From a virus (Duplodnaviria > Heunggongvirae > Uroviricota > Caudoviricetes): a stretch of DNA of 26,096 bases. The stretch lies in IMG/VR virus record IMGVR_UViG_2778261392_000003. One strand, 5' to 3'. Positions 5,014-25,724 of this stretch are shown piece by piece. The position numbers were made by a program, and so were the translations under genes. Positions within the stretch are counted from its first letter, which is position 1; the number at the start of each line of letters is the position of its first letter. Under the pieces are notes generated by a model, which was not told where the DNA came from, did not search any database, and saw nothing but the letters and a program-made list of their open reading frames with translations.

Positions 5014-5867
5014 GCACCATCCTGAAATGGGCGGGAAATAAAACCGCCATTATGTCCGAACTGAAAAAACACCTTCCTGCTGGCCCGCGACTGGTTGAAC
5101 CTTTCGCGGGTTCCTGTGCTGTGATGATGGCGACGGATTACCCCAGCTATCTGGTTGCTGATATTAATCCTGATTTAATCAACCTCTATAAAAAGATTGC
5201 CGCTGATTGTGAATCGTTTATATCTCGTGCCAGAGCTTTATTTGAGGAAGCAAACAGGGAGGTGGCTTATTACAACATAAGGCAGGAGTTTAACTGCTCA
5301 ACTGAAATTACTGACTTCATGAAAGCAGTATATTTCCTGTATCTCAATCGTCACGGTTACCGTGGGTTATGTCGCTATAACAAGAGCGGGCATTTCAACA
5401 TTCCCTACGGTAATTATAAAAATCCGTATTTCCCTGAAAAAGAAATTCGCGTATTTGCAGAGAAAGCCCAGCGAGCAACGTTTATCTGCGCCAGCTTTGA
5501 TGAAACGCTGGCGATGCTGCAGTTGGGGGATGTGGTGTATTGCGATCCGCCTTATGACGGTACGTTTTCCGGCTATCACACTGACGGCTTCACTGAAGAT
5601 GACCAGTATCACCTGGCATCTGTTCTTGAATATCGATCATCAGAAGGTCATCCAGTCATTGTTTCTAACAGTGACACATCCCTGATCCGTTCGCTGTATC
5701 GAAATTTCACTCACCACTACATCAAGGCAAAACGCAGCATCGGCGTGTCGGCTGGCGAGAGTAAATCTGCAACAGAAATCATTGCTGTTTCCGGGGCGCG
5801 CTGCTGGGTGGGATTTGATCCTTCGTGTGGCGTGGATAGTTCTGCTGTGTACGAGGTGCGTGTATGA
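5010..5867 (+). CDS. dam: DNA N6-adenine methyltransferase, Dam family (likely GATC-specific)
   Basis: Motif I-like EPFAGSCAV near N-terminus and catalytic DPPY (CDPPYDG); ATG 5010 with GGAGG RBS; ATGA overlap with A gene start. Confidence 0.85.
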
Positions 5868-8278
5868 GTCATGACGATATGAGCAACTCTAGCGGCTTTA
5901 ACGAGGCCGCTGCAGCATTTTCATGGAACGGCCCGAAAAAGGCCATTAACCCTTATCTGGACCCGGCGGAAGTTGCGCCGGAGTCTGCACTTTCAAACCT
6001 GATCACTCTGTACGCTGCCGATAATGAGCAGGAACAGCTGCGCCGCGATGCACTGAGTGAGCAGGTCTGGGAGCGTTATTTCTTTAATGAATCTCGTGAT
6101 CCTGTCCAGCGCGAAATGGAGCAGGATAAGCTCATTAGCCGGGCAAAGCTGGCGCATGAACAGCAGCGTTTTAACCCGGACATGGTCATTCTGGCGGACG
6201 TCAGCGCCCAGCCCACCCATATTAGCAAGCCGCTGATGCAACGTATCGAATACTTCAGCAGCCTGGGCAGGCCAAAGGCTTATTCCCGCTATTTGCGTGA
6301 GACGATTAAGCCATGTCTGGAGCGACTGGATTGTGTACGTGACAGTCAGCTGTCTGCTTCTTTCCGTTTTATGGCAAGCCATCAAGGGCTGGAGGGCCTG
6401 CTGATCCTGCCTGAAATGAGTCAGGATCAGGTGAAACGCCTGTCCACCCTGGTAGCTGCGCATATGAGCATGTGCCTTGATGCAGCTTGTGGCGATTTGT
6501 ATGCCACTGATGACGTTAAGCCAGAAGAAATCCGCAAGACATGGGAAAAGGTGGCGGCGGAAACCCTGCGTCTGGATGTCATCCCACCTGCGTTTGAGCA
6601 ACTCCGTCGGAAAAGAAACCGCCGTAAACCCGTGCCCTATGAACTCATTCCGGGTTCGCTGGCGCGTATGTTGTGCGCCGACTGGTGGTATCGGAAATTA
6701 TGGAAAATGCGTTGCGAATGGCGGGAAGAGCAGTTGCGTGCTGTCTGCCTGGTCAGCAAAAAAGCATCTCCCTATGTCAGCTATGAAGCCGTGATGCATA
6801 AACGTGAGCAGCGCCGTAAGTCGCTGGAGTTTTTCCGTTCTCATGAACTGGTGAACGAAGACGGCGAAACGCTGGACATGGAGGATGTGGTAAACGCCAG
6901 CAGCAGCAACCCTGCGCATCGCCGCAATGAGATGATGGCCTGTGTTAAAGGTCTGGAGCTTATCGCGGAAATGCGCGGTGACTGCGCCGTTTTCTACACT
7001 ATCACCTGTCCGTCACGTTTCCATTCCACGCTCAACAACGGCAGACCCAACCCGACCTGGACAAATGCGACGGTAAGACAAAGCAGCGATTATCTGGTCG
7101 GCATGTTTGCTGCATTTCGTAAGGCAATGCACAAAACCGGGTTGCGCTGGTATGGCGTGCGGGTGGCTGAGCCGCACCATGACGGTACTGTGCACTGGCA
7201 TCTCATGTGCTTCATGCGTAAAAAAGACCGCCGCGCCATCACTGCATTACTGCGTAAGTTTGCCATCCGTGTAGACCGCGAGGAGCTGGGCAACAACACG
7301 GGGCCACGCTTTAAGTCTGAGCTGATTAACCCGCGCAAAGGAACACCGACAAGCTACATCGCGAAATACATCAGTAAGAACATTGACGGGCGTGGTCTGG
7401 CTGGCGAGATCAGCAAGGAAACGGGTAAATCCCTGCGTGATAACGCCGAATACGTTAATGCCTGGGCGTCTCTGCATCGTGTTCAGCAGTTCCGCTTCTT
7501 TGGTATTCCGGGACGTCAGGCTTACCGTGAACTTCGCTTGCTGGCAGGTCAGGCGGCAAGGCAACAGGGTGACAAAAAAGCAGGTGCGCCAATACTGGAT
7601 GACCCGCGCCTTGACGCCATCCTGGCTGCTGCTGATGCTGGTTGTTTTGCCACCTACATCATGAAGCAGGGCGGCGTACTGGTTCCCCGTAAATATCACC
7701 TTATCAGAACCGCTTATGAAATCAACGAAGAGCCGACCGCCTATGGCGATCACGGCATTCGTATTTATGGCATCTGGTCACCCATTGCAGAGGGCAAGTT
7801 CTGCACTCACGCAGTGAAGTGGAAAATGGTTCGTAAGGCCGTTGACGTTCAGGAGGCGGTAGCCGACCAGGGCGCTTGCGCCCCTTGGACTCGTGGCAAT
7901 AACTGTCCCCTTGCTGAAAATTTAAACCAACAAGGGAAAGACAAATCAGCTGATGGGGACTCCAGAACGGATATTACCCGTATGAATGACAAGGAGTTGC
8001 ACGATTACCTGCACAGTATGAGCAAAAAAGAGCGCCGGGAACTGGCTGCAAGGTTACGCCAGGTGAAACCGAAACGGCGTAAAGACTACAAACAGCGAAT
8101 TACAGACCATCAGCGACAGCAGCTCGTCTATGAACTGAAGTCCAGGGGATTTGATGGCAGCGAGAAAGAAGTCGATTTGCTCCTTCGCGGCGGCAGTATT
8201 CCGTCAGGAGCAGGCCTGCGTATCTTCTATCGGAACCAGCGTCTGAAGGAAGATGATAAGTGGCGGAACCTGTATTAA
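5864..8278 (+). CDS. A: Replication initiation endonuclease (P2 gpA-like rolling-circle initiator)
   Basis: 804 aa; HWHLMCF metal-binding type motif; size and position as P2 gene A at end of early operon. Confidence 0.85.
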
Positions 8279-9397: not shown

Positions 9398-9885
9398 GGA
9401 AACTCCTTTTATTGGTGTTTGCTATTTGAATAAAAATACGCCAAACAGAGTGTTAACTGTGAATCTGGAAAGAATCGTTGTAAGTACCCCGCTTAGGTGT
9501 CCCATTCTATTTTAGAGGTTCTCGTGCATATGGATTATGTTATCTGAAAGCTAACTTCCGCTTCCCGTTCACAGCGAACATTCATCTTTGTAAACCCGTA
9601 TGATCCGTTTTTCAAGTGGCCATTCAGATACGGATTTTCACTTCCTTGACAGTGCATGACTATGCTGCATGAAATCGCATGATCGATTGAGGATCGTCTT
9701 TGCTCAGATCCGCCAGAACTGGCGGGCTTTTGCTCATGTCATGCATGTGCATGAAAACCACTGCATAAAGCGGGCAGGCGTGGCGGGGATACGAGCGCGC
9801 GGCAGTGGATATGTTCACAAAACGGATGAAATCTAACATGTAATGTCATATTATCTAAAAGCTGTTAAGTATGACGGGAGGAATA

Positions 9886-11124
9886 ATGCGACATTTCATC
9901 GAAACTATCTTCTTTAAAAGGAACGATGAGCCTTACACATTAAATCTTGATGGTAAGAATCTAATAATATCAGGAGATAATGGCTCTGGTAAAACTAGGT
10001 TGATCGAGAATATTTATGAGTTTATAGAAAAATCGATTAATTCACATGATCCTTATACTAAGGAGCAGCTACAAAAGGAATTGAATTCCAGTCAAGAAAA
10101 CTTAAAGTATTCAAATAGAGGGGATGGTAATTATAGCTATTTAAACGAAGAAATTGAGAGACTGAAAGAAAAATTAAAAGAATTTGAGAGCTTTGATATT
10201 ACTTTTAATGATGTGGTTGATTTCAGGGTTGCTGCAAAAAAGAAAAAATCAATTATAAGATTATTTCCTGCTATTCGAGAAGCGAAAATAAAAAATGATG
10301 GTAAGATTAGCAGCCTCGATTTGTTGTTAACTGAGTATGGGAACGCACAGAGAAATAATTCTAAGATTGATGCTGGTATGTATTTTGAAAGATACATAGT
10401 TACATTGTGGAATTATGCTTTAGTCAGTAAGGGAGTGGGCAAGGATGATGACTATAAAAGAGCCTTTGATATTATTGAGAGTATTAATGATGACTTAAAA
10501 GAACTTTTTGAAGATGAAAGTATTAGAATGGATTTTGATCTCGACAAGTTGAAAATCTATCTTTTACAAAATAATAAGGAACCATTTGGACTTGATAAGT
10601 TGTCATCTGGTTTTTCATCAATTCTTTCTATTTATACTGATTTATTGATAAAAGCAGAGCTTGATAAAATCAGAAAACATGATATGACAGGGATAGTACT
10701 TATTGATGAAATTGATGCTCATCTTCATGTAACATTGCAAAAGAAAGTATTTAGTTTTTTTTCATCATCTTTTCCGCAAATACAATTTATTGTTTCTACG
10801 CATTCACCTTTCGTAATCCAATCAGTATCTGATGCGATTATATTTAATCTCTCAACATTGGATCAGATGGGTGATTTATCATTGTATTCTTACACAGCAA
10901 TTATAAAGGGATTGTTGGGTGAGGATGTATCTTCGGATAAGCTAAATGCATTAGTTAAAGAATTAATGACTTTAGTAGAAAATAATGTCTTCGACGATAG
11001 ATTTCATTCTATAATGAAAACGTTACAGAAGAGTATTGATTTTCTTGATAAAAGTTCAAAAGCAGCTTTTATGATCGCTAAGAGTAAATATTTAGATTAT
11101 AGCGAAAGGGAAGACGATGTTTAA
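9886..11124 (+). CDS. ptuA: ABC/AAA15-type ATPase, Septu PtuA-like
   Basis: Walker A GDNGSGKT, ABC signature-like LSSGF, Walker B IVLIDEIDAHLH, H-loop STHSPF; coiled-coil-like insert; start taken at ATG 9886 (GGAGG upstream), alternative ATG 9871; AT-rich by eye. Confidence 0.65.
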   Translation: MRHFIETIFFKRNDEPYTLNLDGKNLIISGDNGSGKTRLIENIYEFIEKSINSHDPYTKEQLQKELNSSQENLKYSNRGDGNYSYLNEEIERLKEKLKEFESFDITFNDVVDFRVAAKKKKSIIRLFPAIREAKIKNDGKISSLDLLLTEYGNAQRNNSKIDAGMYFERYIVTLWNYALVSKGVGKDDDYKRAFDIIESINDDLKELFEDESIRMDFDLDKLKIYLLQNNKEPFGLDKLSSGFSSILSIYTDLLIKAELDKIRKHDMTGIVLIDEIDAHLHVTLQKKVFSFFSSSFPQIQFIVSTHSPFVIQSVSDAIIFNLSTLDQMGDLSLYSYTAIIKGLLGEDVSSDKLNALVKELMTLVENNVFDDRFHSIMKTLQKSIDFLDKSSKAAFMIAKSKYLDYSEREDDV

Positions 11125-11788
11125 TGTTACTAGAAACATTCCTGCACCTCAATGCTTGTCGAGAAAAGTATATAACCATAAAACAGTTGTAAATGCTTTA
11201 GACGAAATATTTCATGGAAAATGTTATCTCTGTGAGCAAGGTAATCTTATGGATCCAGAGATAGAACATTTTATTCCACATCGTGATCTTGATGAGCTCA
11301 AATATGATTGGAACAATCTATTTTTAGCTTGCAGTCGATGCAATAGTATTAAAAGTGATTCTTTTGAAAACTTACTTGATTGCACAAAGAGTGATGTTGA
11401 TGTTTTCAGTGAGATTGTTCATCTCGCAGGGAACGCTATAACGAGTGGTGTTCAAGTATACCCAAGAAGAAAAAGACCAAGTAGAAAGGTTTTAAATACA
11501 GTCAAATTATTAGATAAGTGTTTTAACTCTTCGAGTACGGGGTTGAGGGGCATTACAAGAGCAAATCTCTCAGAGAAGTTACAAGATGAATTGTTTTACT
11601 TTACTGGTTGGAGAATGAAACTTGTCAGTGATCGAAGCACAGAACAAGAAATCCAAGAGGCCAAGAATAAGCTAAAGCCAATGTGTAATGTATCATATCC
11701 ATTTTCTGTTTTTTGGCGTTGGCATTTATTAACTGATATTCGAGTAATGAAAAAATTCCCAAGAATCAGAGATGAGCTTGGTTTTTAA
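11117..11788 (+). CDS. ptuB: HNH endonuclease, Septu PtuB-like
   Basis: 223 aa; CxxC (CYLCEQ), HFIPH, and NLFLACSRCNSIK form a classic HNH zinc-finger nuclease motif; 8-nt overlap with upstream ATPase gene (translational coupling). Confidence 0.65.
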   Translation: MFNVTRNIPAPQCLSRKVYNHKTVVNALDEIFHGKCYLCEQGNLMDPEIEHFIPHRDLDELKYDWNNLFLACSRCNSIKSDSFENLLDCTKSDVDVFSEIVHLAGNAITSGVQVYPRRKRPSRKVLNTVKLLDKCFNSSSTGLRGITRANLSEKLQDELFYFTGWRMKLVSDRSTEQEIQEAKNKLKPMCNVSYPFSVFWRWHLLTDIRVMKKFPRIRDELGF

Positions 11789-11825: not shown

Positions 11826-12854
11826 TTAAGTTAAACTATAATCTTCAAATTGGATTATATCTTCATCTATCCAATAATTTAGTTCTTGTAACCGTTTTTG
11901 TAAAGGTATCAGTTCATTTATAACAAAAACCTTACTAGCCTTCTCCACATCCCCAAACCCCCCAACATTATTAGGCATTATCCCCATCATTTGCGGCGGC
12001 ACGCGGTGCGCAGCCATCATGTCATCACGGCTCACGTTCTTGATATTCAAAAACTCATCCTTCGCCGCGACTTCTGACAATGGGATGATCTGAAGCCCGT
12101 CCTTTTTGCCGTTAGGCGAGTACATAAACAGGTTGCGGAAGTTACCCGGTCCTTTGGCGCTTTTCATCGCGTTGCGGAGGTTGTTCACATCCTCCTGGTT
12201 CTGCGCGGCATCGGTCATGTACATGATGAAGCCAGCATGACTGCCGTTTATGTAATACTTTCGACGGAACAGCGTGGCGGACTCATTGAGCAGGGCGGAC
12301 GGAATAGCAGAAAGATAACCGGGCAGGCCGTAGATCTCCTGGTTGATATCGGGTTCCATCAGATGAAAGATGCTGCCTTTCGTGAACTGATACGGCTGGG
12401 TTGTCATACCGTATTGCACAAACCAGTAGGTATCCAGGTCTAACCCGCGTCGGGTGTATTTTGCCAGAGCAGGCTCAAGGGCGATAACTTCACCGAAGCG
12501 GTTCGTGCGTTTCTCCAGGTAGGCGTTACCAAATACCAGATAGTCCTGCACAAAACGTGAAAAAGCCTGCTGGCTGAGCAGCGGGTGGGGGATGTAGGTA
12601 CTGGTCAGAATGTTGCATTTCACCGCAATTGGTGAACTGTGATGCACGGCGGCGCGGAAGGTGCGCGCCAGTCCGTCAAAGCTTACTGGCGGCTCATACC
12701 AGCGATCTGTCTGTACGCATTCCACATAGTCCAGTAGTTCGCGGCGGTCCAGAACAGGAACGGGATCGCCAAAGCTGAATGCTTCGGCTGTAGTTTGACT
12801 TTTATGCTGGATCTGGTTCGTCGACGCAGCGCGGTTCTTCTTACTCTTTCCCAT
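11826..12854 (-). CDS. Q: Portal protein (P2 gpQ-like)
   Basis: 342 aa; synteny and size; ATGA overlap with terminase P stop. Confidence 0.9.
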   Translation of the reverse strand: MGKSKKNRAASTNQIQHKSQTTAEAFSFGDPVPVLDRRELLDYVECVQTDRWYEPPVSFDGLARTFRAAVHHSSPIAVKCNILTSTYIPHPLLSQQAFSRFVQDYLVFGNAYLEKRTNRFGEVIALEPALAKYTRRGLDLDTYWFVQYGMTTQPYQFTKGSIFHLMEPDINQEIYGLPGYLSAIPSALLNESATLFRRKYYINGSHAGFIMYMTDAAQNQEDVNNLRNAMKSAKGPGNFRNLFMYSPNGKKDGLQIIPLSEVAAKDEFLNIKNVSRDDMMAAHRVPPQMMGIMPNNVGGFGDVEKASKVFVINELIPLQKRLQELNYWIDEDIIQFEDYSLT

Positions 12855-14620
12855 CAAAAAATCTCCACAATATTACTGGTATTGGCGGACTCGCCCTGCA
12901 GTGGTTCGTTAAACAGTGCGTGCATTGTTGCCCAGGCCAGATCGGCGTGGCTGGCTTCTTCGCTGCGGCTGGCTTCATAGGTTGGGCGGTTGCCACTGGC
13001 GGTGGTTGCGCGACGGATTGCCATGAATGACTGCGCAATGTCGGTGTGCCCGGCGTCAAACTCCAGACGGCGGTGGCTGATAATGTCGTAGGCCTTGAGT
13101 ACCAGGGCGTTTTTAACGTTGGGGTTGTAGACAAACTCCCGGACGGCAGGAAAGAACGCTTTCACGTTCTCGTAAACCCCGTGACCAACGCCGGTTGAGT
13201 CGATACCGATATAAGTCACGTTGTACTGTTCGGTAAGTTTTTTGATGGCGTCAGCCTGGGCGCGGAAGTCCATCCCGCGCCACTGGTGACGCTCAAGAAT
13301 GCGGAACTTACCACCCGGCACGGCTGGCGGTGCCACCACCACGCATCCAGCGCTGTCGCCGTTTTGCGTACCTTTTGCCGGGTCATAACCGATCCACACT
13401 TCGCGCCAGTCAAACGGGCGCAGCGCCAGTGCATGAAAGTCGGTCCAGACTTCCCAACTGTCCACCATGCACGCCTGCAGCTCGCTGAGCGGAAACACGG
13501 ACGCGAGATCGTCCACAAACTCGCACATCAGCAGGTTCTGGTATTCGTCTGGGCTGTACTCCATGCGTAGCTGGTCGAGGTCGAACAGGTTACAGCCGCC
13601 GCGCACCGCATCTTCCACGGTGACTATCTGGCGGTATTGCCCGTCTGCGCACAGCAGGCCGGGGGCCAGATTGCTGTGGGACAGGTCGATGTCCACCTTA
13701 TCGGCTTTGTTGCGCCCACGGTTGAACAGCGCACCGGACCAGAACGGATAAGCACTGTGTGTCAGACTGGATGGCGTGGAAAAATAGGTTTGTCGCCATT
13801 TTTTGTGAATAGCCATACCGGAAGCCACTTTGCGCAGCTCCTGGAATTTCGGTATCCAGAAATATTCATCCAGATACAGGTTGCCGTGGTAACTCTGGGC
13901 CGTGCGGGCATTGGTGCCGAGGAAGTAAAGCGTGGCCCCGTTAGGAAGCACCATCGGATCGCCTTTCAGCTCCACCTCCACTTCTTTGGCAAAGTCGATG
14001 ATGTACTGTTTAAAGACGTGGGCCTGAGCCTTGCTGGCAGAAAGGAAAATCTGGTTACGCCCGGTCAGCAGGGCGTCAATCAGGGCTTCACGGGCAAAGT
14101 AAAAGGTCGCGCCGATCTGGCGTGACTTCAGCAGGTTGCGGATGCGGTTGGTTTTTCCGGCTTCCCACCAGTGGCGCTGGTAGTTGAACATAGAGGAATG
14201 GAAGATTTCTTCCAGCTTCTCAATCTGTTCATCGGTGAAGACATTCTTTTCCGGCTGACGACGTGGGCCTTTGTTGCGGTTGGCAACGTTAGGGTTTAAG
14301 TCGGCTTCGTTGCCGCCATTGTTAAACTTGCCGATCCGCGCGTGGCGCTCAGACTGGCGTGCCAGCAGGTCAATTTCTTTGAAATCTTTCCCTTCTTTGT
14401 GCTCCTTCATAATGAGCTGGCAGTAGCGTGCGGCGGTGGTGAGCTGCATCTGATCCAGCGGCCCATAGTCACCCCACTTGTCGCGTTTTTTCCAGCTGTG
14501 AACGGTTGCAACTTTCTCGCCCAGCATTTCAGCAATGCGGGCGACGCGGTATCCCTGAAAGTACAGCAGCATGGCCTGCCGACGGGGATCGAGATCTGCG
14601 GGTGTCAGTGTGGTGTTCAT
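12854..14620 (-). CDS. P: Terminase large (ATPase) subunit (P2 gpP-like)
   Basis: 588 aa; position divergent from O-N-M operon; characteristic size. Confidence 0.9.
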   Translation of the reverse strand: MNTTLTPADLDPRRQAMLLYFQGYRVARIAEMLGEKVATVHSWKKRDKWGDYGPLDQMQLTTAARYCQLIMKEHKEGKDFKEIDLLARQSERHARIGKFNNGGNEADLNPNVANRNKGPRRQPEKNVFTDEQIEKLEEIFHSSMFNYQRHWWEAGKTNRIRNLLKSRQIGATFYFAREALIDALLTGRNQIFLSASKAQAHVFKQYIIDFAKEVEVELKGDPMVLPNGATLYFLGTNARTAQSYHGNLYLDEYFWIPKFQELRKVASGMAIHKKWRQTYFSTPSSLTHSAYPFWSGALFNRGRNKADKVDIDLSHSNLAPGLLCADGQYRQIVTVEDAVRGGCNLFDLDQLRMEYSPDEYQNLLMCEFVDDLASVFPLSELQACMVDSWEVWTDFHALALRPFDWREVWIGYDPAKGTQNGDSAGCVVVAPPAVPGGKFRILERHQWRGMDFRAQADAIKKLTEQYNVTYIGIDSTGVGHGVYENVKAFFPAVREFVYNPNVKNALVLKAYDIISHRRLEFDAGHTDIAQSFMAIRRATTASGNRPTYEASRSEEASHADLAWATMHALFNEPLQGESANTSNIVEIF

Positions 14621-18307: not shown

Positions 18308-18803
18308 ACGCTGCCTTGTCGGGGCCGTGCTGGCTATTGCTGCCGCGCTACCGGGTTTTCAGCAGCTTCACACCTCCGTGGAGGGGCTGAAACTGATTGC
18401 CGATTACGAAGGCTGTCGTCTGCAGCCGTATCAGTGCAGCGCGGGTGTCTGGACCGACGGCATTGGTAATACATCTGGCGTCATTCCAGGCAAAACCATT
18501 ACGGAACGACAGGCCGCGGAAGGGCTGATCTCCAACGTGCTGCGTGTGGAGCGGGCACTGGAAAGGTGTGTGAAGCAACAGCCACCGCAGAAAGTGTATG
18601 ACGCGGTGGTGTCATTTGCCTTCAACGTGGGGACAGGCAATGCCTGCAGTTCCACGCTGGTGAAATTGCTCAATCAGCGGCGCTGGGCGGATGCGTGCCG
18701 ACAGTTGCCGCGCTGGGTTTATGTAAAAGGTGTGTTTAATCAGGGGCTGGATAACCGCCGTGCGCGGGAGATGGCCTGGTGCCTTAAAGGAGCTGGACTA
18801 TGA
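18288..18803 (+). CDS. K: Endolysin, lysozyme/GH24-like (P2 gpK-like)
   Basis: 171 aa; lysozyme-like motif EGCRLQPYQCSAGVWTDGIGNT; GGGAGGA RBS. Confidence 0.85.
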   Translation: MNPSIVKRCLVGAVLAIAAALPGFQQLHTSVEGLKLIADYEGCRLQPYQCSAGVWTDGIGNTSGVIPGKTITERQAAEGLISNVLRVERALERCVKQQPPQKVYDAVVSFAFNVGTGNACSSTLVKLLNQRRWADACRQLPRWVYVKGVFNQGLDNRRAREMAWCLKGAGL

Positions 18804-19228
18804 CGCGTGCGCTGGCAGTAGTGGTGGCGCTGGCACTCGTTGCGCTGGGCTGGCAGTCGTGGCGGCTTAACAGCGCCAGCCACACCATCGAAACGCAGCG
18901 CGCGGCGCTGAAAAGTAAAGCGCAGGAACTGACGAAGAAAAACAGCCAGCTTATCAGCCTGTCCATTCTGACTGAAACCAATAACCGGGAGCAGGCGCGG
19001 CTCTATGCCGAAGCAGAACAGACCAGCGCACTGCTGAGACAACGACAACACCGGATCGAGGAACTGAAACGTGAGAACGAGGATTTACGCCGCTGGGCTG
19101 ATACTCCTTTGCCTGCTGACATTATCCGGCTGCGGGAACGTCCGGCACTCACCGGAGGTACAGCTTACCGTCAGTGGTTGTCCGCGAGTGACGCCGTGTT
19201 GGCTGGATCAGGCAACGCCGCGCACTAA
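18800..19228 (+). CDS. lysB: Inner-membrane spanin (LysB/Rz-like)
   Basis: N-terminal TM segment (LAVVVALALVALGW) followed by coiled-coil-like charged region; ATGA overlap with endolysin. Confidence 0.7.
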   Translation: MTRALAVVVALALVALGWQSWRLNSASHTIETQRAALKSKAQELTKKNSQLISLSILTETNNREQARLYAEAEQTSALLRQRQHRIEELKRENEDLRRWADTPLPADIIRLRERPALTGGTAYRQWLSASDAVLAGSGNAAH

Positions 19229-19361
19229 CGGTGATCTGAACGCGTTGCTGGATGAAACGGAGGCCGCCTGGGCGGTCTGTGCAGACAAAGTGGACATGAT
19301 TATTGCGTGTCAGGAGCGAAACAGTGAACAAACCACAATCCCTGCGCCACGCCCTCAATAA
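19071..19361 (+). CDS. lysC: Outer-membrane lipoprotein spanin (LysC/Rz1-like)
   Basis: Signal peptide with lipobox LTLSGC; starts inside lysB in another frame, the typical spanin arrangement; GTG start. Confidence 0.6.
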   Translation: MRTRIYAAGLILLCLLTLSGCGNVRHSPEVQLTVSGCPRVTPCWLDQATPRTNGDLNALLDETEAAWAVCADKVDMIIACQERNSEQTTIPAPRPQ

Positions 19362-19755
19362 AGCGGTGCCTTATGTCCGCAATAACCCGGACAAACTGCA
19401 TCTGTTTGTGGATAACGGTTCGCTGGTTGCCACGGGGGCCAGCTCCATGTCGTGGGAGTACCGTTACACCCTGAACGCGGTGATTGAGGATTTCAGCGGC
19501 GACCAGAATCTGCTGATGGCCCCGGTTTTGCTGTGGCTGCGGGATAACCAGCCCGATGCCATCAATAACCCGGCGTTACGGGAAAAACTATTTACCTTTG
19601 AGGTGGATATTCTGCGCAACGATGTCTGTGATATCAGCCTTAACCTGCAACTGACGGAACGTGTGCTGGTCAGCACTGACGGCAGTGTGTCGAGCGTTGA
19701 AGCTGTAGCAGAACCCGATGAACCTGAAGAAATGTGGACGGTGAAACGTGGCTGA
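19324..19755 (+). CDS. R: Tail completion protein R (P2 gpR-like)
   Basis: GTG 19324 with AGGAG 7 nt upstream; about 143 aa; synteny. Confidence 0.75.
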   Translation: MNKPQSLRHALNKAVPYVRNNPDKLHLFVDNGSLVATGASSMSWEYRYTLNAVIEDFSGDQNLLMAPVLLWLRDNQPDAINNPALREKLFTFEVDILRNDVCDISLNLQLTERVLVSTDGSVSSVEAVAEPDEPEEMWTVKRG

Positions 19756-20194
19756 ACTGCAGAAGGTGGACGACTGGCTTAGTGCCTTACTGGCGAATCT
19801 GGAACCAGTCGCAAGAAGCCGCATGATGCGCCAGCTGGCGCAGGAACTGCGCCGGACACAGCAGCAGAATATCAGGATGCAGCGCAATCCAGATGGCAGC
19901 AGTTATGAACCGCGCAAGGTCACGGCGCGCAGTAAAAAAGGCCGCATCAAACGTCAGATGTTTGCAAAGCTGCGCACCACCAAATACCTGAAAACCGCCG
20001 CCAGCGCCGACTCTGCCAGCGTACAGTTTGAAAGTAAGGTGCAGCGCATTGCCCGCGTTCACCATTATGGCCTGCGCGATCGCGTCAGCCGCAAAGGACC
20101 GGAAGTGCGTTACGCAGAGCGTCGTTTGTTGGGTCTTAATGGTGAGTCTTACGTTCTAACTCTTGATATATTGAATAGATTCCTTCTGTCTTGA
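19748..20194 (+). CDS. S: Tail completion / virion morphogenesis protein S (P2 gpS-like); 3' end lies in AT-rich inserted DNA
   Basis: 148 aa; overlaps R stop; the last ~17 codons (from about 20143) are in visibly AT-rich sequence and overlap the 3' end of the opposite-strand membrane-protein gene. Confidence 0.75.
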   Translation: MAELQKVDDWLSALLANLEPVARSRMMRQLAQELRRTQQQNIRMQRNPDGSSYEPRKVTARSKKGRIKRQMFAKLRTTKYLKTAASADSASVQFESKVQRIARVHHYGLRDRVSRKGPEVRYAERRLLGLNGESYVLTLDILNRFLLS

Positions 20195-20942
20195 ATTCAC
20201 CATATGCCCAATGAATTGCATTTTTTTGTTCAGTCAGAATATATTTCCTAACTTTTTTAGAATAGTGAATGGTCAGTATAAAACCCAAAGAAATCCATAA
20301 TAGAATAAATATGGTTGTTGGGGCAAAGGAATAGATAAAGAATTTGTCTTTAACGAAATTCTTGACTTCTTCATCAATGTAAGCATTCCCTTCATCAGTG
20401 GTTAGTAGTTTACAAAGAATTTCTTTATGTTCGATAGTTAATGATTTGTACTTCTCTGTACTGGCAGAGGATGACTCTTCGCAATCATCCTTTGATATTT
20501 CCCAATCAGGAGTGGTTAATATTGTAGCTGCAGTCGCCAGTTTTTTTGACATATAAAATGATTCACCGGATTTTATCCAATAAAGCAATGTGCTATTTGG
20601 TGGGGTTCTAATGGCTTGGATGAAAACTGGACCAAAAATATAAATTGCACACAAAAAAAGAAGTGAAAAGAGAACCGTGATTGATTTTTCAGCCCATGTG
20701 ATAGTAGGCAGCCTTTTTAATGATATTCGTATAAGAAAAAAATTTAATATAAACGCAGGTATTCCTGATTTTTTCAAAATTACATCATGAGATTTTCTAT
20801 ATTTGAATAGTGCTCTTATAACTATCGTCACCAAAGTTATAACAGCTCCAATAATGGAAATCCATGCGGCAAGTGCCGCTGCCGGGGTGTTTAAAAATTC
20901 AGCATTAAATATATTAGAACTTATTGGATTCATAACACTCAT
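20136..20942 (-). CDS. Multi-pass membrane protein, unknown function (cargo gene between late operons; candidate superinfection-exclusion/abortive-infection protein)
   Basis: 268 aa; 3 hydrophobic helices in first ~110 aa (AAALAAWISIIGAVITLVTIVI; IPAFILNFFLIRI; ITVLFSLLFLCAIYIFGPVFIQAI), ~100 aa charged soluble domain, then a 4th helix (IFILLWISLGFILTI); ATG 20942 with AGGTGG RBS; strongly AT-rich; opposite strand to all flanking late genes. Confidence 0.65.
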   Translation of the reverse strand: MSVMNPISSNIFNAEFLNTPAAALAAWISIIGAVITLVTIVIRALFKYRKSHDVILKKSGIPAFILNFFLIRISLKRLPTITWAEKSITVLFSLLFLCAIYIFGPVFIQAIRTPPNSTLLYWIKSGESFYMSKKLATAATILTTPDWEISKDDCEESSSASTEKYKSLTIEHKEILCKLLTTDEGNAYIDEEVKNFVKDKFFIYSFAPTTIFILLWISLGFILTIHYSKKVRKYILTEQKNAIHWAYGEFKTEGIYSIYQELERKTHH

Positions 20943-20981
20943 TTATCCACCTATTGGTTGTTTTTTATCCTTTTATCAATT

Positions 20982-20999
20982 TGTACCATCGATACCACA
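20982..20999 (+). promoter_or_regulatory. Late-promoter activator site TGT-N12-ACA upstream of V (P_V-like)
   Basis: TGTaccatcgataccACA read directly, about 50 bp upstream of the V ATG, retained to the right of the inserted membrane-protein gene. Confidence 0.45.
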
Positions 21000-21045
21000 A
21001 TTTGCAAGAAGTTATAAACAAGTTTTCAGCTGTCATCATATATCT

Positions 21046-21624
21046 ATGAACGCACAACTAACCGAAATCATGCGCCTTATCACCAATCTGATCCGCATAG
21101 GTGTAGTCACCGAAGTGGACCGGGAAAACTGGCTTTGTCGGGTGAAAACGGGCGACCTTGAAACCAACTGGATTAACTGGCTGACGCTGCGCGCGGGTAA
21201 TGCCCGCACATGGTGGCGACCATCGGAAGGTGAGCAGGTGGTGCTGCTGAGTCTGGGCGGCAATCTGGAAACCGCCTTTGCGTTACCCGCCATCTATTCG
21301 AATCAGTTCGCGCCACCGTCGACGTCGGCGGACGCCTGCGTGATAGAACATCCTGACGGTGGCTGGTTTGAATACGAACCCGCCACCGGGCGCTGGTATG
21401 TCAGGGGCATCAAATCAATGGTCATTGAGGCCGCTGACAACATCACCATGAAAACCAGTGAGTTTGTACTGGAGGCTGACCGCACGCGCATTAACAGCGA
21501 AGTGGTGATCAATGGTGGCATTACCCAGGGCGGCGGAGCGATGAGTTCTAACGGGATCGTGGTTGATGCGCATCAGCATACTGGCGTCCTGAAAGGCGGC
21601 GATACAACTGGAGGCCCGGTATGA
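21046..21624 (+). CDS. V: Baseplate assembly protein V / spike (P2 gpV-like)
   Basis: About 192 aa from ATG 21046 (MNAQLTEIMRLITNLIRIGVV); the ORF-track 5' extension to 20803 runs through the AT-rich insert and is rejected. Confidence 0.8.
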   Translation: MNAQLTEIMRLITNLIRIGVVTEVDRENWLCRVKTGDLETNWINWLTLRAGNARTWWRPSEGEQVVLLSLGGNLETAFALPAIYSNQFAPPSTSADACVIEHPDGGWFEYEPATGRWYVRGIKSMVIEAADNITMKTSEFVLEADRTRINSEVVINGGITQGGGAMSSNGIVVDAHQHTGVLKGGDTTGGPV

Positions 21625-21980
21625 CGCTTTATAGCGGGATGAACAATACCAGCGGCAAAGCCATTACTGATATTGACCATCTGCGCCAGTCGGTGCGGGA
21701 CATTCTGCTGACACCACAGGGTAGTCGCATTGCCCGTCGTGAATATGGTTCCCTGCTGTCGGCACTGATAGACCAGCCACAAAATCCGGCATTACGCCTG
21801 CAGGTCATGTCGGCAGTGTATGTGGCGCTGAGTCGCTGGGAGCCACGGCTGACGCTGGATTCCATCACCATCCACAGCAATTTTGACGGTTCAATGGTGG
21901 TGGAGCTGACCGGGCGGCGGAATAACGGTGTGCCTGTTTCCCTTTCCGTATCAACAGGAGCAGAGAATGGCAGTGATTGA
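21621..21980 (+). CDS. W: Baseplate protein W (GPW/gp25 family)
   Basis: 119 aa; ATGA overlap with V. Confidence 0.85.
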   Translation: MTLYSGMNNTSGKAITDIDHLRQSVRDILLTPQGSRIARREYGSLLSALIDQPQNPALRLQVMSAVYVALSRWEPRLTLDSITIHSNFDGSMVVELTGRRNNGVPVSLSVSTGAENGSD

Positions 21981-22875
21981 CCTTTCGCAGTTGCCTGCGC
22001 CGCAGATTGTGGATGTGCCGGACTTTGAGACGCTGCTTGCCGAACGCAAGGCAGAATTTGTGGCGCTTCATCCGAAAGATGAGCAGGAAGCAGTGATCCG
22101 CACGCTGGAACTGGAATCTGAACCCGTCACCAAATTGTTGCAGGAGAACGCTTACCGTGAGTTGCTTCTGCGCCAGCGCATTAACGAAGCCGCGCAGGCG
22201 GTAATGGTGGCTTACGCGATGGGTGGCGATCTTGACCAGATCGCTGCCAACTACAACGTGAAACGCCTGACGGTGACGCCTGCTGATAATGACGCTGTGC
22301 CGCCCGTTGCAGCAGTGATGGAAAGCGATGAAGCGTTACGCCTGCGTGTGCCTGCAGCCTTTGAGGGGCTTTCAGTTGCGGGACCAACTGCCGCTTATGA
22401 ATTTCATGCCCGAAGCGCCGACGGTCGGGTGGCGGATGCCAGTGCAACCAGTCCGGCACCTGCAGAGGTGGTGCTGACAGTCCTTAGCCGCGAAGGAGAC
22501 GGAACAGCAGAAAAAGACCTGCTGGATGTGGTGGAGAAAGCACTGAACAGTGAGAATGTCCGCCCGGTGGCTGACCGTCTGACGGTTCGCAGCGCGGAAA
22601 TCATCCCGTACCGCGTGGAAGCCACCATTTTTCTCTATCCGGGACCGGAAGCAGAGCCGGTAATGGCAGCGGCAAAAGCCAGCCTGCAGAGGTACATTGC
22701 CAGTCAGACGCGTCTTGGTCGGGATATTCGCCGTAGCGCCATCTTTGCCGCCCTGCATGTTGAGGGTGTGCAGCGTGTGGAGCTGGCTTCTCCTCTGGCG
22801 GATGTGGTCCTGAACAAAACACAGGCGGCATCATGTACGCAGTGGAGCGTGACCAACGGAGGAACGGATGAATAG
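21967..22875 (+). CDS. J: Baseplate assembly protein J
   Basis: ATG 21967 with AGGAG RBS; about 302 aa; synteny. Confidence 0.85.
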   Translation: MAVIDLSQLPAPQIVDVPDFETLLAERKAEFVALHPKDEQEAVIRTLELESEPVTKLLQENAYRELLLRQRINEAAQAVMVAYAMGGDLDQIAANYNVKRLTVTPADNDAVPPVAAVMESDEALRLRVPAAFEGLSVAGPTAAYEFHARSADGRVADASATSPAPAEVVLTVLSREGDGTAEKDLLDVVEKALNSENVRPVADRLTVRSAEIIPYRVEATIFLYPGPEAEPVMAAAKASLQRYIASQTRLGRDIRRSAIFAALHVEGVQRVELASPLADVVLNKTQAASCTQWSVTNGGTDE

Positions 22876-23473: not shown

Positions 23474-24885
23474 GCACAAAATTTTATACCCTGCTGACGG
23501 ATATTGGTGCGGCGAAACTTGCCAGCGCCGCCGCGCTCGGTGTGCCTTTAAAAATTACCCATATGGCGGTAGGCGATGGCGGCGGAACATTGCCAACGCC
23601 GGACGCAAAGCAGACAGCATTAGTAAATGAGAAACGCCGGGCTGCGCTGAATATGCTGTACATCGACCCGCAGAACAGCAGCCAGATTATTGCTGAACAG
23701 GTGATCCCTGAAAACGAGGGCGGTTGGTGGATACGTGAAGTGGGCCTGTTTGATGAGTCCGGGGCATTGATTGCCGTGGGCAACTGCCCGGAAAGCTATA
23801 AGCCGCAACTGGCTGAAGGCAGCGGGCGTACCCAGACCGTGCGTATGGTGTTGATTACCAGCAGCACGGACAATATCACCCTGAAAATCGACCCTGCCGT
23901 AGTGCTGGCAACCCGCAAGTATGTGGATGACAAGGCACTGGAGCTGAAGGTGTACGTGGATGACCTGATGGCAAAACATCTTGTCGCACCGGACCCGCAT
24001 TCACAGTATGCACCCAAAGAAAGTCCGACGTTTACCGGAACCCCCAAAGCGCCAACGCCAGCGGCGGGGAATAACACCACGCAGGTTGCGACCACCGCGT
24101 TTGTTCAGGCGGCACTGACGGCTCTTATTAATGGTGCGCCAGCCACGCTGGACACGCTGAAAGAAATAGCCGTAGCCATTAACAATGATCCGAAATTCAG
24201 TACCACCATTAACAATGCGCTGGCACTGAAAGCGCCACTGTCGAGTCCGGCACTCACCGGAACGCCAACAGCACCTACTGCGGCACAGTCGGTCAACAAT
24301 ACACAGATTGCCACTACAGCTTTTGTGAAATCAGCGATTGCAGCAATGGTGGGTTCTGCACCCGCGGCACTGGATACACTGAACGAACTGGCGGCGGCAC
24401 TGGGGAATGATCCGAACTTTGCCACGACAATGCTTAATGCGCTGGCAGGTAAACAACCGCTGGACAATACGCTGACTAATTTGAGTGGAAAGGATGTAGC
24501 TGGTCTTCTCGCATACCTTGGTTTGGGAGAAGCGGCAAAACGGAATGTAGGTAACGGGCAAAACCAAATTCCGGATATGGCGGCGTTTGCCAGTTCACTT
24601 TCATCAACGGGTTTTCAAAAACTCCCTTCAGGTCTGATTATTCAGTGGGGTATTGTCAGTGGAGCATCAAACTATACGGTGACTTACCCGGTAACATTCC
24701 CAAATCGTTCACTTGCGCTGTTGACTGTGCCACATACAACGTCGGTGGCTGGTATATCTGCAATGGGCATAGCGAACTGTTCTGATATCAGCAAATCACA
24801 GTTCTATATAATTGTTGGCGGTATATCTCAGGGAGAAATTGTCAAATATGAAAGGTCCTGTTTTTGGGTAGCAATCGGTGTATAG
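23470..24885 (+). CDS. H: Tail fibre protein H (constant N-terminal part plus currently fused variable C-terminal cassette)
   Basis: 471 aa; repetitive PT/AT-rich shaft (TGTPKAPT...TGTPTAPT); C-terminal ~110 aa lie inside the inverted-repeat-bounded segment. Confidence 0.85.
24520..24551. repeat. Left inverted repeat of invertible tail-fibre segment (32 bp perfect, degenerate extension to about 24580)
   Basis: GGTTTGGGAGAAGCGGCAAAACGGAATGTAGG is the exact reverse complement of 26065-26096. Confidence 0.75.
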
Positions 24886-24893
24886 GTATATCT

Positions 24894-25289
24894 ATGATTT
24901 ATTTCTCAAAATCGACTAATGGTTTTTTCTTTGATGGTATAAACAGCGACATGCCTGCTGACATTGTTGAGATAAGTACAGACTTATACAATGAATTAAT
25001 TGCCGGACAGCAGGAAGGGGGTAAATTAATCACGTCAGATGAAAATGGTTTACCGGTACTGAAATCTCCGGCGATTGATTATGTCGCACGTGCTGAAAAT
25101 CAGCGAATGCAGTTACTTGCTCATGCCGATAATGTCACAGCTGACTGGCGGGTGGAATTAATGCTTGGTGATATCAGCAGTACAGATAAAGAAAAACTAT
25201 CTGCCTGGATGGACTACAAAAAAGAAGTAAAAGCCGTCGACACTTCGACGGCTCCTGAGATTAGCTGGCCTGAGTTACCGGAGGTGTAG
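24894..25289 (+). CDS. G: Tail fibre assembly protein (gpG/Tfa-like), cassette matching current orientation
   Basis: 131 aa from ATG 24894, 8 nt after H stop; C-terminus similar to the opposite-strand Tfa. Confidence 0.75.
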   Translation: MIYFSKSTNGFFFDGINSDMPADIVEISTDLYNELIAGQQEGGKLITSDENGLPVLKSPAIDYVARAENQRMQLLAHADNVTADWRVELMLGDISSTDKEKLSAWMDYKKEVKAVDTSTAPEISWPELPEV

Positions 25290-25704
25290 GCCATTCAATA
25301 TCTGGAGCACTGGAGGTATCCACCAGTTCCAGTGCGTCCAGGTAATCCAGCCACAAATTATATTGCGCCAGTTCCTCACCTTTCAGACGACCAATAGCTG
25401 CTTTGCCAGGCCATTGCTTACTGTTCATGTATTCGTTAGCCTGGTTAATTAGTAGCTGTCTTTCTGATTCAGTAATTTCAATAAGCTCTTCATGCGTGGG
25501 TGGAGGAATATCTGCCCACGCAGGCAGCCCATCATCTCCGGCAATACGGATTTTTCCTTGTGGCGGTTCAGCCATAAACTCACTGATAATATTTTGATTT
25601 ACTTCCTTTGCGTCTGATAAATCCCATCCCTCTGATTTATATTTATCAATCATATCCACAGGGAAAAAAGCATTATGCCTTGCGCTATAAACATATTCGT
25701 TCAT
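25261..25704 (-). CDS. Alternative tail fibre assembly protein (Tfa') for the inverted orientation
   Basis: 147 aa from ATG 25704; C-terminal DTSSAPDIEWPTPPV resembles plus-strand Tfa DTSTAPEISWPELPEV; convergent with and overlapping G by 29 bp. Confidence 0.7.
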   Translation of the reverse strand: MNEYVYSARHNAFFPVDMIDKYKSEGWDLSDAKEVNQNIISEFMAEPPQGKIRIAGDDGLPAWADIPPPTHEELIEITESERQLLINQANEYMNSKQWPGKAAIGRLKGEELAQYNLWLDYLDALELVDTSSAPDIEWPTPPVTQAS

Positions 25705-25724
25705 ATAAATCACCCTGAATAAAA

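What the first reader, a model, noticed from the sequence alone, without database searches (positions are those of the whole stretch)
20136..21045. Opposite-strand membrane-protein gene inserted exactly at the S/V late-operon boundary
P2-family tail genes S and V are normally adjacent. Here a ~0.9 kb visibly AT-rich block carries a 268-aa, four-helix membrane protein on the opposite strand, with its own RBS. The TGT-N12-ACA late-activator dyad for V (20982-20999) survives just to its right. Placement in a transcriptionally silent gap, orientation and composition suggest a lysogen-expressed cargo gene such as superinfection exclusion or abortive infection. I do not recognise the protein as any named family.
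Basis: partly seen in the sequence, partly recalled or inferred. Interest (0 to 1): 0.75.

Follow-up and report, generated by a model that had tools for sequence, protein, structure and literature searches.

The report
Prophage cargo membrane protein (DUF6216)
A P2-like E. coli prophage carries, in a known gene-swapping slot between two tail genes, an uncharacterised inner-membrane protein of the small DUF6216 family; it probably helps the host resist other phages, but that is untested, and the same gene sits in the lab strain BL21(DE3).

Summary
A 268-aa ORF (20136-20942, minus strand) lies in a 0.9-kb block of 30-35% GC between gpS and gpV. The TGT-N12-ACA dyad sits at 20982-20999.

The interpretation needs correcting on three points:
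- The protein belongs to a named but uncharacterised family, Pfam DUF6216. RefSeq annotates it so in 111 of 5426 complete E. coli genomes, including BL21(DE3).
- It has three transmembrane helices, not four. The predicted central domain faces the periplasm and carries the only two invariant residues of the family, a cysteine pair.
- S and V are not "normally adjacent". This is the classical orf30 slot of P2. About half of sampled E. coli relatives have it filled. Fillers include PARIS, SIR2, GmrSD and TIR genes.

P2 Orf30 has the same strand, size and secondary-structure order, and a weak profile match. It is probably a remote relative.

The gene has a conserved promoter-like motif that overlaps the late-activator dyad. 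It evolves under purifying selection. It survives as the last gene of decayed P2 prophages at the ybjL-rcdA site in at least seven enterobacterial lineages.

An anti-phage role at the envelope is the best guess (about 0.45) and is unproven. A preprint that may bear on it could not be opened.

The parts
19748..20194 (+). gpS (tail completion / virion morphogenesis), last gene of the upstream late operon. Its last ~17 codons (from about 20140) belong to the swapped cassette.
   Evidence: PF05069 E 1.9e-38. The C-terminus differs in every slot variant after the LLG motif.
20140..21045 (.). AT-rich exchangeable cassette: the S 3' end, the cargo gene, and the pV control region.
   Evidence: GC 0.30-0.35 against about 0.57. 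Homology to the empty-site and Cartapus variants breaks at about 20140 and resumes at the V ATG, except for the dyad. There are no flanking repeats.
20136..20942 (-). Cargo gene: a 268-aa DUF6216-family inner-membrane protein. It has 3 transmembrane helices, and the predicted periplasmic domain (residues 111-202) carries the invariant C154 and C177.
20136..20194 (.). Antisense dual-coding overlap of 59 bp: the gpS C-terminus (+) and the DUF6216 C-terminus (-).
   Evidence: Coordinates. The overlap and both peptide motifs (ESYxLTLDILxRxLL and GEFKxEGIYxIYQELER) are conserved in loci L003, L005 and L013.
20947..20952 (-). Shine-Dalgarno sequence AGGTGG, 4 nt upstream of the ATG.
   Evidence: GG.GG is conserved in 8 loci.
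20980..21007 (-). Putative sigma-70 promoter of the cargo gene: -35 TTGCAA (21007..21002), a 16-nt spacer, and an extended -10 TGgTACAAA (20988..20980).
   Evidence: TTG[CA]AA-N16-TGGTACAA is invariant in 8 loci. These include chromosomal relics in which the TGT half of the activator dyad has mutated to TAT. The strict consensus scan missed it because position 6 of the -10 is A.
20982..20999 (+). TGT-N12-ACA dyad, the Ogr/Delta-type late-activator site of the V promoter. It overlaps the spacer and -10 of the cargo promoter.
   Evidence: The equivalent feature is annotated in P2 at 10239-10266.
21046..21624 (+). gpV baseplate spike, first gene of the V operon.
   Evidence: PF04717 E 6e-18 plus the Apex motif.

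Best explanation
This is a lysogen-expressed cargo gene (a 'moron') in the orf30 slot of a P2-like E. coli prophage. It encodes a three-pass inner-membrane protein of the small DUF6216 family.

The proposed mechanism has four steps, each marked as shown or inferred.

1. Shown: the gene is part of an exchangeable cassette. The cassette replaces the S 3' end, the intergenic space and the pV control region by recombination between P2-like genomes.

2. Inferred from conservation: it is transcribed leftward from its own sigma-70 promoter (TTGCAA-N16-TGgTACAAA). That promoter lies inside the late-activator dyad. It would therefore be on in the lysogen. During lytic growth, Ogr binding would occlude it, and unterminated late transcription through S would run antisense to it.

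3. Inferred from charge distribution, the AlphaFold model and the invariant cysteine pair: the protein inserts with the N-terminus outside and the C-terminus inside. It displays a disulfide-stabilised alpha/beta domain of about 90 residues in the periplasm and a basic helix in the cytoplasm.

4. Inferred, untested: at the envelope it interferes with infection by other phages. The most likely mode is a superinfection-exclusion-type block of genome entry across the inner membrane. This benefits the host enough that the gene outlives the prophage.
For: Family and anatomy:
- Pfam DUF6216 scores 45.6 bits against a cut-off of 27.3.
- The family is tiny: 49 representatives in 1.84 billion proteins.
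- The only invariant residues across 37 diverse members are C154 and C177.
- Mean net charge is -1.3 for the N-terminus, +5.1 for loop 1 and +3.3 for the C-tail.
- The model has pLDDT 74.8. Its element order is TM1, TM2, 4 strands, 2 Cys-bearing helices, then a long TM3 helix.

Slot:
- P2 Orf30 has the same strand and size and the same order of secondary-structure elements.
- hhalign gives probability 61% and P 8e-5, and aligns both cysteines.
- In 1064 E. coli genomes with this backbone, a spread sample of 60 shows about 30 empty slots, 7 with DUF6216 and about 19 with other cargo.
- That other cargo includes PARIS AriA/AriB, a SIR2/ThsA-like gene, a GmrSD-type gene and a TIR gene.
- The same prophage also carries Septu and a KAP NTPase candidate in its other hotspots.

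Selection and persistence:
- dN/dS is 0.15-0.33.
- Copies survive in degraded P2 remnants with only S, R or V fragments left.
- Lone genes sit between ybjL and rcdA in C. sedlakii, Scandinavium and several unnamed lineages, co-oriented with ybjL as in the prophage. In E. coli strain H3 a P2-like prophage carrying this cassette is integrated at that same site.

Promoter:
- The -35 and extended -10 are invariant in 8 loci. These include relics that have lost half of the Ogr dyad.
- There is no terminator between S and the cargo.
Against: - There is no experimental phenotype.
- 'Guilt by location' is weak for a single small membrane protein. Hotspots also carry non-defence cargo.
- E. coli B/BL21(DE3) carries an intact copy with an identical promoter. 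From general knowledge, B is the classical permissive host of T1-T7. If the gene is expressed there, it does not exclude those phages.
- The promoter is weak by consensus (4/6 and 4/6), and the strict scan did not call it.
- The topology is predicted, not measured.
- None of 50,697 sequenced phage records carries the gene.
Confidence: 0.45

Rival explanations
1. Abortive-infection-type membrane effector. The protein senses an infection cue and permeabilises or depolarises the inner membrane. The infected cell dies before phage release.
For: It is a small multi-pass membrane protein in a slot that otherwise hosts Abi-type systems such as PARIS, SIR2 and TIR. Its AT-rich composition suits H-NS silencing of a potentially toxic gene. 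A preprint on H-NS silencing of immunity loci mentions DUF6216 once, BL21 29 times and P2-like 4 times, but it could not be read.
Against: It is a single gene with no conserved partner or recognisable sensor domain. The most conserved feature is a cysteine pair in the predicted periplasmic domain, not a pore-like helix bundle. The gene is stably kept as a lone chromosomal gene in many lineages, which is easier for a non-toxic protein.
Confidence: 0.15
2. Lysogenic-conversion factor unrelated to phage. This would be an envelope protein that improves host fitness. Examples are protection against bacteriocins, tailocins or contact-dependent toxins, envelope-stress tolerance, or niche colonisation.
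For: The gene persists under purifying selection after the prophage is gone, next to housekeeping genes, in several genera. That shows a host-level benefit that need not involve phage. A few distant members lie in non-phage contexts, for example beside an AraC regulator and a TonB-dependent receptor. P2 hotspots are described as mixed-purpose (bioRxiv 10.1101/2024.10.15.618418).
Against: There is no enzymatic or transporter signature. Every annotated neighbour class in this particular slot that can be named is anti-phage.
Confidence: 0.2
3. Phage life-cycle accessory: a holin/antiholin-like lysis modulator or a virion/tail assembly factor used by the phage itself.
For: It lies in the late region beside lysis and tail genes. 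TM1 has a weak resemblance to an HP1-type holin (PF16080, E 0.037, below the cut-off).
Against: It is on the opposite strand to all late genes and outside both late operons. It is absent from about half of otherwise near-identical prophages. P2 Orf30 in this slot is annotated nonessential. The gene is retained where all lysis and tail genes are deleted.
Confidence: 0.04
4. Non-functional leftover: a spurious or decaying ORF in foreign AT-rich DNA.
For: No function is known. The family is tiny.
Against: The full-length ORF is intact in 111 E. coli genomes. dN/dS is 0.15-0.33. The cysteine pair is invariant at 13-57% identity. The promoter and ribosome-binding site are conserved.
Confidence: 0.02

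Closest known systems
Pfam DUF6216 (PF19723), 'family of unknown function'
   Same: The protein scores above the gathering threshold, and 35 of 37 diverse relatives do too. RefSeq/PGAP already labels this exact protein (WP_000115390.1 in BL21(DE3)) as a DUF6216 family protein.
   Different: Only profile positions 114-265 align. The N-terminal third is diverged. The last ~22 residues (GEFKxEGIYxIYQELER) are an extension specific to the clade whose 3' end overlaps gpS. The family name carries no functional information.
Phage P2 Orf30 (NP_046770, phrog_2407, nonessential, function unknown)
   Same: It occupies the same slot (S | orf | activator site | V), on the same strand, with similar length (261 vs 268 aa). 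It has the same three-TM layout with a basic loop and tail. It has the same order of predicted secondary-structure elements, including two Cys-bearing helices after a four-stranded sheet. hhalign gives P 8e-5 over 83 columns and aligns both cysteines.
   Different: Sequence similarity is not significant by HMMER (E 0.01-0.04 in a 9-sequence test), and there is no Pfam hit. hhalign probability is only 61%, and transmembrane segments inflate such scores. P2 has a terminator between S and orf30 and no overlap with S.
Prophage superinfection-exclusion membrane proteins (e.g. P22 SieA, T4 Imm, HK97 gp15; from general knowledge)
   Same: Small inner-membrane proteins encoded by phages or prophages. 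They are expressed independently of the late genes, are often AT-rich morons within structural-gene regions, and act at the DNA-entry step.
   Different: No homology was detected to any PHROG family, including those annotated as exclusion proteins. No phenotype is known. The resemblance is functional analogy only.
P2 defence hotspots (old/tin between A and Q; Z/fun within the tail genes)
   Same: It is a variable, AT-rich, recombination-exchanged locus at a fixed position in a conserved P2 backbone. Sister genomes carry recognised defence systems there. The window itself has Septu in the A-Q hotspot.
   Different: The S-V (orf30) locus is listed as a horizontal-transfer site (PMC3091744). It is not discussed in Rousset 2022, in Vassallo 2022, or by name in the 2026 NAR survey, which mentions only a hotspot 'downstream of GpL' within the tail genes.

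Membership tests
Pfam DUF6216 (PF19723) | Whole-protein HMM score at or above the curated gathering threshold (27.3 bits) | tested here: met
   45.6 bits, E 7e-12. Residues 72-237 match profile positions 114-265 of 270.
Pfam DUF6216 (PF19723) | Shared architecture with other members: three TM segments, and a central domain with a conserved Cys pair | tested here: met
   In the alignment of 37 members at 13-57% identity, the only invariant columns are C154 and C177, and F129 and W147 are nearly invariant. The charge and hydropathy pattern is shared.
P2 Orf30 family (phrog_2407) | Significant sequence similarity to Orf30 | tested here: inconclusive
   tblastn against phage records found no match. 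hmmsearch gives E 0.01-0.04. hhalign profile-profile gives probability 60.8% and P 8.2e-5.
P2 Orf30 family (phrog_2407) | Position and orientation: opposite strand, between S and the pV activator site | tested here: met
P2 Orf30 family (phrog_2407) | Same fold | tested here: inconclusive
   The order of secondary-structure elements matches in the two AlphaFold models. No pairwise 3D superposition could be run. BFVD holds no Orf30 entry to hit.
Moron (autonomous cargo unit in a phage late region) | Present between two genes that are adjacent in related phages, with deviant base composition | tested here: met
   Empty sites are found in CP019275 and in many Klebsiella and E. coli prophages. GC is 0.30-0.35 against 0.57.
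Moron (autonomous cargo unit in a phage late region) | Own promoter | tested here: inconclusive
   A conserved TTGCAA-N16-TGgTACAAA is seen in 8 loci, including relics. It is not called by the strict consensus scan. There are no transcript data.
Moron (autonomous cargo unit in a phage late region) | Own terminator | tested here: not met
   There is no intrinsic terminator-like site in 19900-21200. Folding downstream of the stop shows no stable hairpin. The 3' end lies inside gpS.
Known anti-phage defence systems (PADLOC-DB v2) | HMM match to a catalogued defence protein | tested here: not met
   0 families at E up to 10.
Superinfection-exclusion proteins (SieA, Imm, gp15 type) | Homology to a described exclusion protein family | tested here: not met
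   No PHROG hit better than E 0.16. No Pfam or NCBIfam hit other than DUF6216.
Superinfection-exclusion proteins (SieA, Imm, gp15 type) | Blocks infection after adsorption (at DNA entry) without killing the cell | not testable with these tools
   Needs plaque, adsorption and DNA-entry assays.
Holins (PF16080 Phage_holin_2_3) | Score above the gathering threshold (28.8 bits) | tested here: not met
   14.5 bits, E 0.037, over TM1 only.

The most novel reading that the evidence does not exclude
DUF6216 proteins and P2 Orf30 together form one old family of single-gene, envelope-level anti-phage (superinfection-exclusion) proteins. They are native to the S-V slot of P2-like phages. They are switched off during lytic growth because their promoter lies inside the Ogr-binding dyad. 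They are normally damped by H-NS. They have been repeatedly domesticated by Enterobacteriaceae as the sole survivor of prophage decay at the ybjL-rcdA attachment site. This would give the nonessential P2 Orf30, whose function is still unknown, a function. It would also reveal a cryptic defence gene in BL21(DE3).
Probability: 0.3. Interest if true: 0.6.

Novelty: new member of a known kind. Interest (0 to 1): 0.42.

Why it matters
If the anti-phage reading is right, several things follow.

- It would add a new single-gene, membrane-level defence or exclusion family.
- It would assign a role to the one P2 accessory gene (orf30) that still has none.
- It would establish the S-V gap as a further P2 defence hotspot alongside old/tin and Z/fun.
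- It would show that a standard laboratory strain carries an unrecognised, probably silenced immunity gene.

Two other features are of interest whatever the function.

- The 'last gene standing' pattern at ybjL-rcdA is a clean natural experiment on prophage domestication.
- The promoter-inside-activator-site arrangement is a compact, testable lysogeny/lysis switch for cargo expression.

If instead no phenotype is found, the locus is an ordinary moron of unknown function in a known variable site.

Tried and rejected
Searches that gave nothing:
- PADLOC, PHROGs and NCBIfam found nothing for the protein.
- A profile search of PDB sequences gave zero hits at E up to 10.
- Foldseek against BFVD gave nothing for either model. 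BFVD lacks Orf30 itself, so that negative says nothing about the Orf30 link.
- The AFDB library was unavailable.
- tblastn against 50,697 phage records found no carrier.
- The strict promoter/terminator scan found no promoter upstream of the gene and no terminator.
- Folding found no significant hairpins at the S/cargo overlap or in the leader.
- The repeat search found no flanking direct or inverted repeats, so transposition was rejected as the insertion mechanism.

Readings considered and rejected:
- Holin or lysis role: the match is below threshold, the strand is wrong, and the gene is kept in relics.
- Capture from the chromosome by imprecise excision: the slot lies mid-prophage, the orientation in relics matches the prophage, and S, R and V fragments flank several relic copies.

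Literature that could not be used:
- The preprint 10.64898/2026.09.05.749240 could not be opened under three id forms.
- The Christie & Calendar P2 review could not be opened.
- Supplements of the 2022 and 2026 hotspot papers hold no mention of DUF6216 or are not held.
Full report
**1. The observation**

The ORF at 20136-20942 (minus strand, 268 aa) is real. It lies in a block where GC falls to 0.30-0.35 from about 0.57 on either side. The neighbours are gpS (19748-20194, PF05069, E 1.9e-38) and gpV (21046-21624, PF04717 plus the Apex motif). An AGGTGG Shine-Dalgarno sequence precedes the ATG. The TGT-N12-ACA dyad is at 20982-20999.

Two details differ from the finding. First, the ORF's 3' end overlaps the gpS 3' end by 59 bp on the opposite strand. 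Second, the protein has three strong hydrophobic segments (24-42, 90-108, 207-225), not four. The fourth candidate (61-76) averages Kyte-Doolittle 0.68 with 2.7 charged residues across the family. AlphaFold models it as a six-residue helix.

**2. Where the window comes from, and how common the cassette is**

The 961 bases 20100-21060 are 100% identical in E. coli strain H3. They occur once each in 111 of 5426 complete E. coli genomes, always as S | DUF6216 | V. PGAP already names the product 'DUF6216 family protein'.

BL21(DE3) carries it in its defective P2-like prophage (HO396_RS04390, WP_000115390.1). That copy has 4 nucleotide differences in 961, and the upstream region is identical. None of 50,697 deposited phage records encodes it.

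**3. What the protein is**

A word-indexed search found 32 relatives at 50-99% identity in Escherichia, Salmonella, Klebsiella, Citrobacter and Serratia. An exhaustive profile search of 1.84 billion cluster representatives found only 49. The family is small.

In an alignment of 37 members down to 13% identity, the only invariant residues are C154 and C177. F129 and W147 are nearly invariant.

Mean net charge across the family is -1.3 for the N-terminus, +5.1 for the TM1-TM2 loop and +3.3 for the C-tail. By the positive-inside rule (established knowledge), this gives N-terminus out and C-terminus in. That places the ~90-residue central domain in the periplasm, where a structural disulfide is expected. 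This topology is an inference.

The AlphaFold model (pLDDT 74.8) shows TM1, short cytoplasmic helices, TM2, four strands, two short helices bearing the cysteines, and one long helix that forms TM3 and the basic tail.

**4. The slot**

P2 itself has the nonessential Orf30 (261 aa) on the opposite strand, between the S terminator and the annotated pV activator site. The orf30 locus is one of three classical sites of horizontally acquired genes in P2-like phages (PMC3091744).

I queried E. coli genomes with 18800-22400. This found the backbone in 1064 genomes. In an evenly spread sample of 60, about 30 have an empty slot (span 2776 bp), 7 carry DUF6216 and about 19 carry something else.

Annotation and PADLOC confirm, between S and V:
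- a PARIS-like AriA/AriB pair;
- a SIR2/ThsA-like protein;
- a GmrSD-type nuclease;
- a TIR protein.
These are mostly on the opposite strand.

Other occupants are soluble hypotheticals, a protein with four C-terminal TM helices, and a second, short (231 aa) DUF6216 allele. Phage Cartapus has an unrelated 176-aa ORF.

So 'S and V are normally adjacent' is only half true. The slot behaves as a defence-gene hotspot. The hotspot papers held here do not name it. The 2026 NAR survey mentions only a hotspot 'downstream of GpL' within the tail genes.

**5. Cassette anatomy**

Alignment with an empty site and with Cartapus shows that homology stops at about 20140, inside S just after the LLG motif. It resumes at the V start codon. 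Only the dyad is shared in between.

Every slot variant has its own last ~17 residues of gpS. No flanking repeats exist. Exchange is therefore by recombination in S and V, not by transposition.

In DUF6216-bearing phages the gpS C-terminus (ESYxLTLDILxRxLL) is encoded antisense to the DUF6216 C-terminus (GEFKxEGIYxIYQELER). Both are conserved between alleles only 47-50% identical overall. Distant DUF6216 members lack this C-terminal extension.

**6. Relation to P2 Orf30**

Orf30 has no Pfam or PADLOC hit and belongs to phrog_2407, of unknown function. HMMER similarity to DUF6216 is not significant.

It does share three things with DUF6216:
- the three-TM layout;
- the same order of predicted secondary-structure elements;
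- a profile-profile match of 83 columns (probability 61%, P 8e-5) that aligns both invariant cysteines, TM3 and the basic tail. The single-sequence comparison gave P 0.0036.

I regard remote homology as likely but unproven.

**7. Expression signals**

The strict consensus scan found no promoter and no terminator. RNA folding found no significant hairpins.

Aligning the upstream regions of eight loci shows an invariant TTG[CA]AA-N16-TGGTACAA on the cargo strand. In the window these are at 21007-21002 and 20988-20980. That is a -35 plus an extended -10.

The motif lies inside the activator dyad. In three chromosomal relic copies, where no V gene remains to be activated, the TGT half of the dyad has mutated to TAT while the promoter elements are unchanged. 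This argues that the conserved elements serve the cargo gene.

It also suggests, by inference, that Ogr binding during late development would occlude the cargo promoter. Unterminated late transcription through S would add antisense interference.

**8. Persistence**

In strain H3 the prophage carrying this cassette sits between rcdA (ybjK) and ybjL.

DUF6216 genes at 32-81% identity lie in the same interval, co-oriented with ybjL as in the prophage, in:
- Citrobacter youngae, flanked by S, R and V fragments;
- Scandinavium, with V fragments, a CI repressor and an OLD-like ATPase;
- C. sedlakii, where nothing else is left;
- several unnamed lineages.

Klebsiella aerogenes keeps it in another degraded remnant cut by an IS element. 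A Buttiauxella prophage has a 47%-identical allele between S and V genes that are 84-85% identical to the window's.

dN/dS is 0.15-0.33 between diverged copies, relics included. The relic genes have GC 0.41-0.45 against 0.34 in prophage copies, which is consistent with long residence. The gene is therefore kept for the host's benefit after the phage is gone.

**9. Interpretation**

Shown:
- it is a DUF6216 family member;
- it is cassette cargo in the orf30 slot;
- it is under purifying selection;
- it persists in prophage relics;
- sister cassettes encode defence systems;
- the same prophage carries Septu (9871-11788) and a KAP NTPase candidate (1113-2444).

Inferred: the promoter, the topology and the disulfide.

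Hypothesised: an envelope-level anti-phage function, most likely exclusion at DNA entry (confidence about 0.45 for anti-phage exclusion). The rivals are an Abi-type membrane effector (0.15), a non-phage envelope fitness factor (0.2), a phage life-cycle accessory (0.04) and junk (0.02).

One caution from general knowledge: E. coli B, which carries the gene, is the classical permissive host of T1-T7. Any activity is therefore either directed at other phages or silenced.

A 2026 preprint on H-NS silencing of immunity loci contains 'DUF6216' once, 'BL21' 29 times and 'P2-like' 4 times. It could not be opened. It may already contain the relevant experiment.

**10. Verdict**

This is a correctly spotted cargo gene in a known variable site, belonging to a catalogued but uncharacterised family. 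It is a new member of a known kind.

It is moderately interesting for four reasons:
- the function is unknown but readily testable in BL21(DE3);
- it has a probable link to P2 Orf30;
- its promoter is embedded in the late-activator site;
- it shows a 'last gene standing' domestication pattern.

Noticed in passing
window 9871-11124 (+) and 11117-11788 (+): An AT-rich (~30% GC) two-gene Septu system lies in the classical old/tin hotspot, between the replication endonuclease (5864-8278) and the portal gene (11826-12857, minus strand). PtuA scores PADLOC E 7e-122. PtuB, which has an HNH domain, scores E 2e-82.
   Followed up: partly
window 1113-2444 (-): A 443-aa KAP-family P-loop NTPase matches the PADLOC candidate system PDC-S20 (E 3e-173). 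It lies in an AT-rich block between the integrase (1-1032, minus strand) and the CI repressor (2476-3051, minus strand). This is a third cargo locus in the same prophage.
   Followed up: partly
window 20136-20194: This is a 59-bp antisense dual-coding overlap: the last 19 codons of gpS and the last 19 codons of the DUF6216 gene. Both peptide motifs stay conserved between alleles that are only 47-50% identical overall. Distant DUF6216 members lack this C-terminal extension.
   Followed up: partly
window ~20140 and 21045; loci L001, L002, L015-L018, L026: Each S-V slot variant brings its own gpS C-terminal ~17 residues and its own pV control region. Only the TGT-N12-ACA dyad is shared. The recombination breakpoints lie inside S and at the V start codon, not in intergenic DNA.
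   Followed up: yes
L009, L010, L011, L004/L012, L019, L020-L023, L027-L029: Lone or nearly lone DUF6216 genes (32-81% identity) sit between ybjL and rcdA in several Enterobacteriaceae. In E. coli strain H3 this is the site where a P2-like prophage carrying the same cassette is integrated. The loci form a graded series of prophage decay that ends with this single gene.
   Followed up: yes
L014 (E. coli BL21(DE3) NZ_CP053602.1 886412-887218): BL21(DE3) carries an intact copy (HO396_RS04390) with an identical upstream region, inside a defective P2-like prophage. This offers a ready genetic test bed. A preprint on H-NS silencing that mentions DUF6216 and BL21 could not be opened.
   Followed up: partly
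L037 (E. coli FORC_081): A second, short (231 aa) DUF6216 allele occupies the same slot without overlapping gpS. Megablast did not align it to the window's gene, but it matches the family profile at E 8e-30.
   Followed up: partly
L036 (E. coli KO11FL) 1409-2332 (-): Another cargo in the S-V slot is a 307-aa protein with a soluble N-terminal half and four C-terminal TM segments. It has no family match.
   Followed up: no
hits H34 and H35 (NZ_CP148585.1, NZ_CP148400.1): Two ~55-kb records annotated as plasmids carry the S | DUF6216 | V cassette. They could be an episomal P2-like element or an assembly artefact.
   Followed up: no
window 24864-25289 (+) and 25261-25713 (-): Two convergent, overlapping tail-fibre-assembly (Caudo_TAP) ORFs follow the tail-fibre gene. 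The layout suggests an invertible host-range segment. Strain H3 has a recombinase next to the equivalent region.
   Followed up: no
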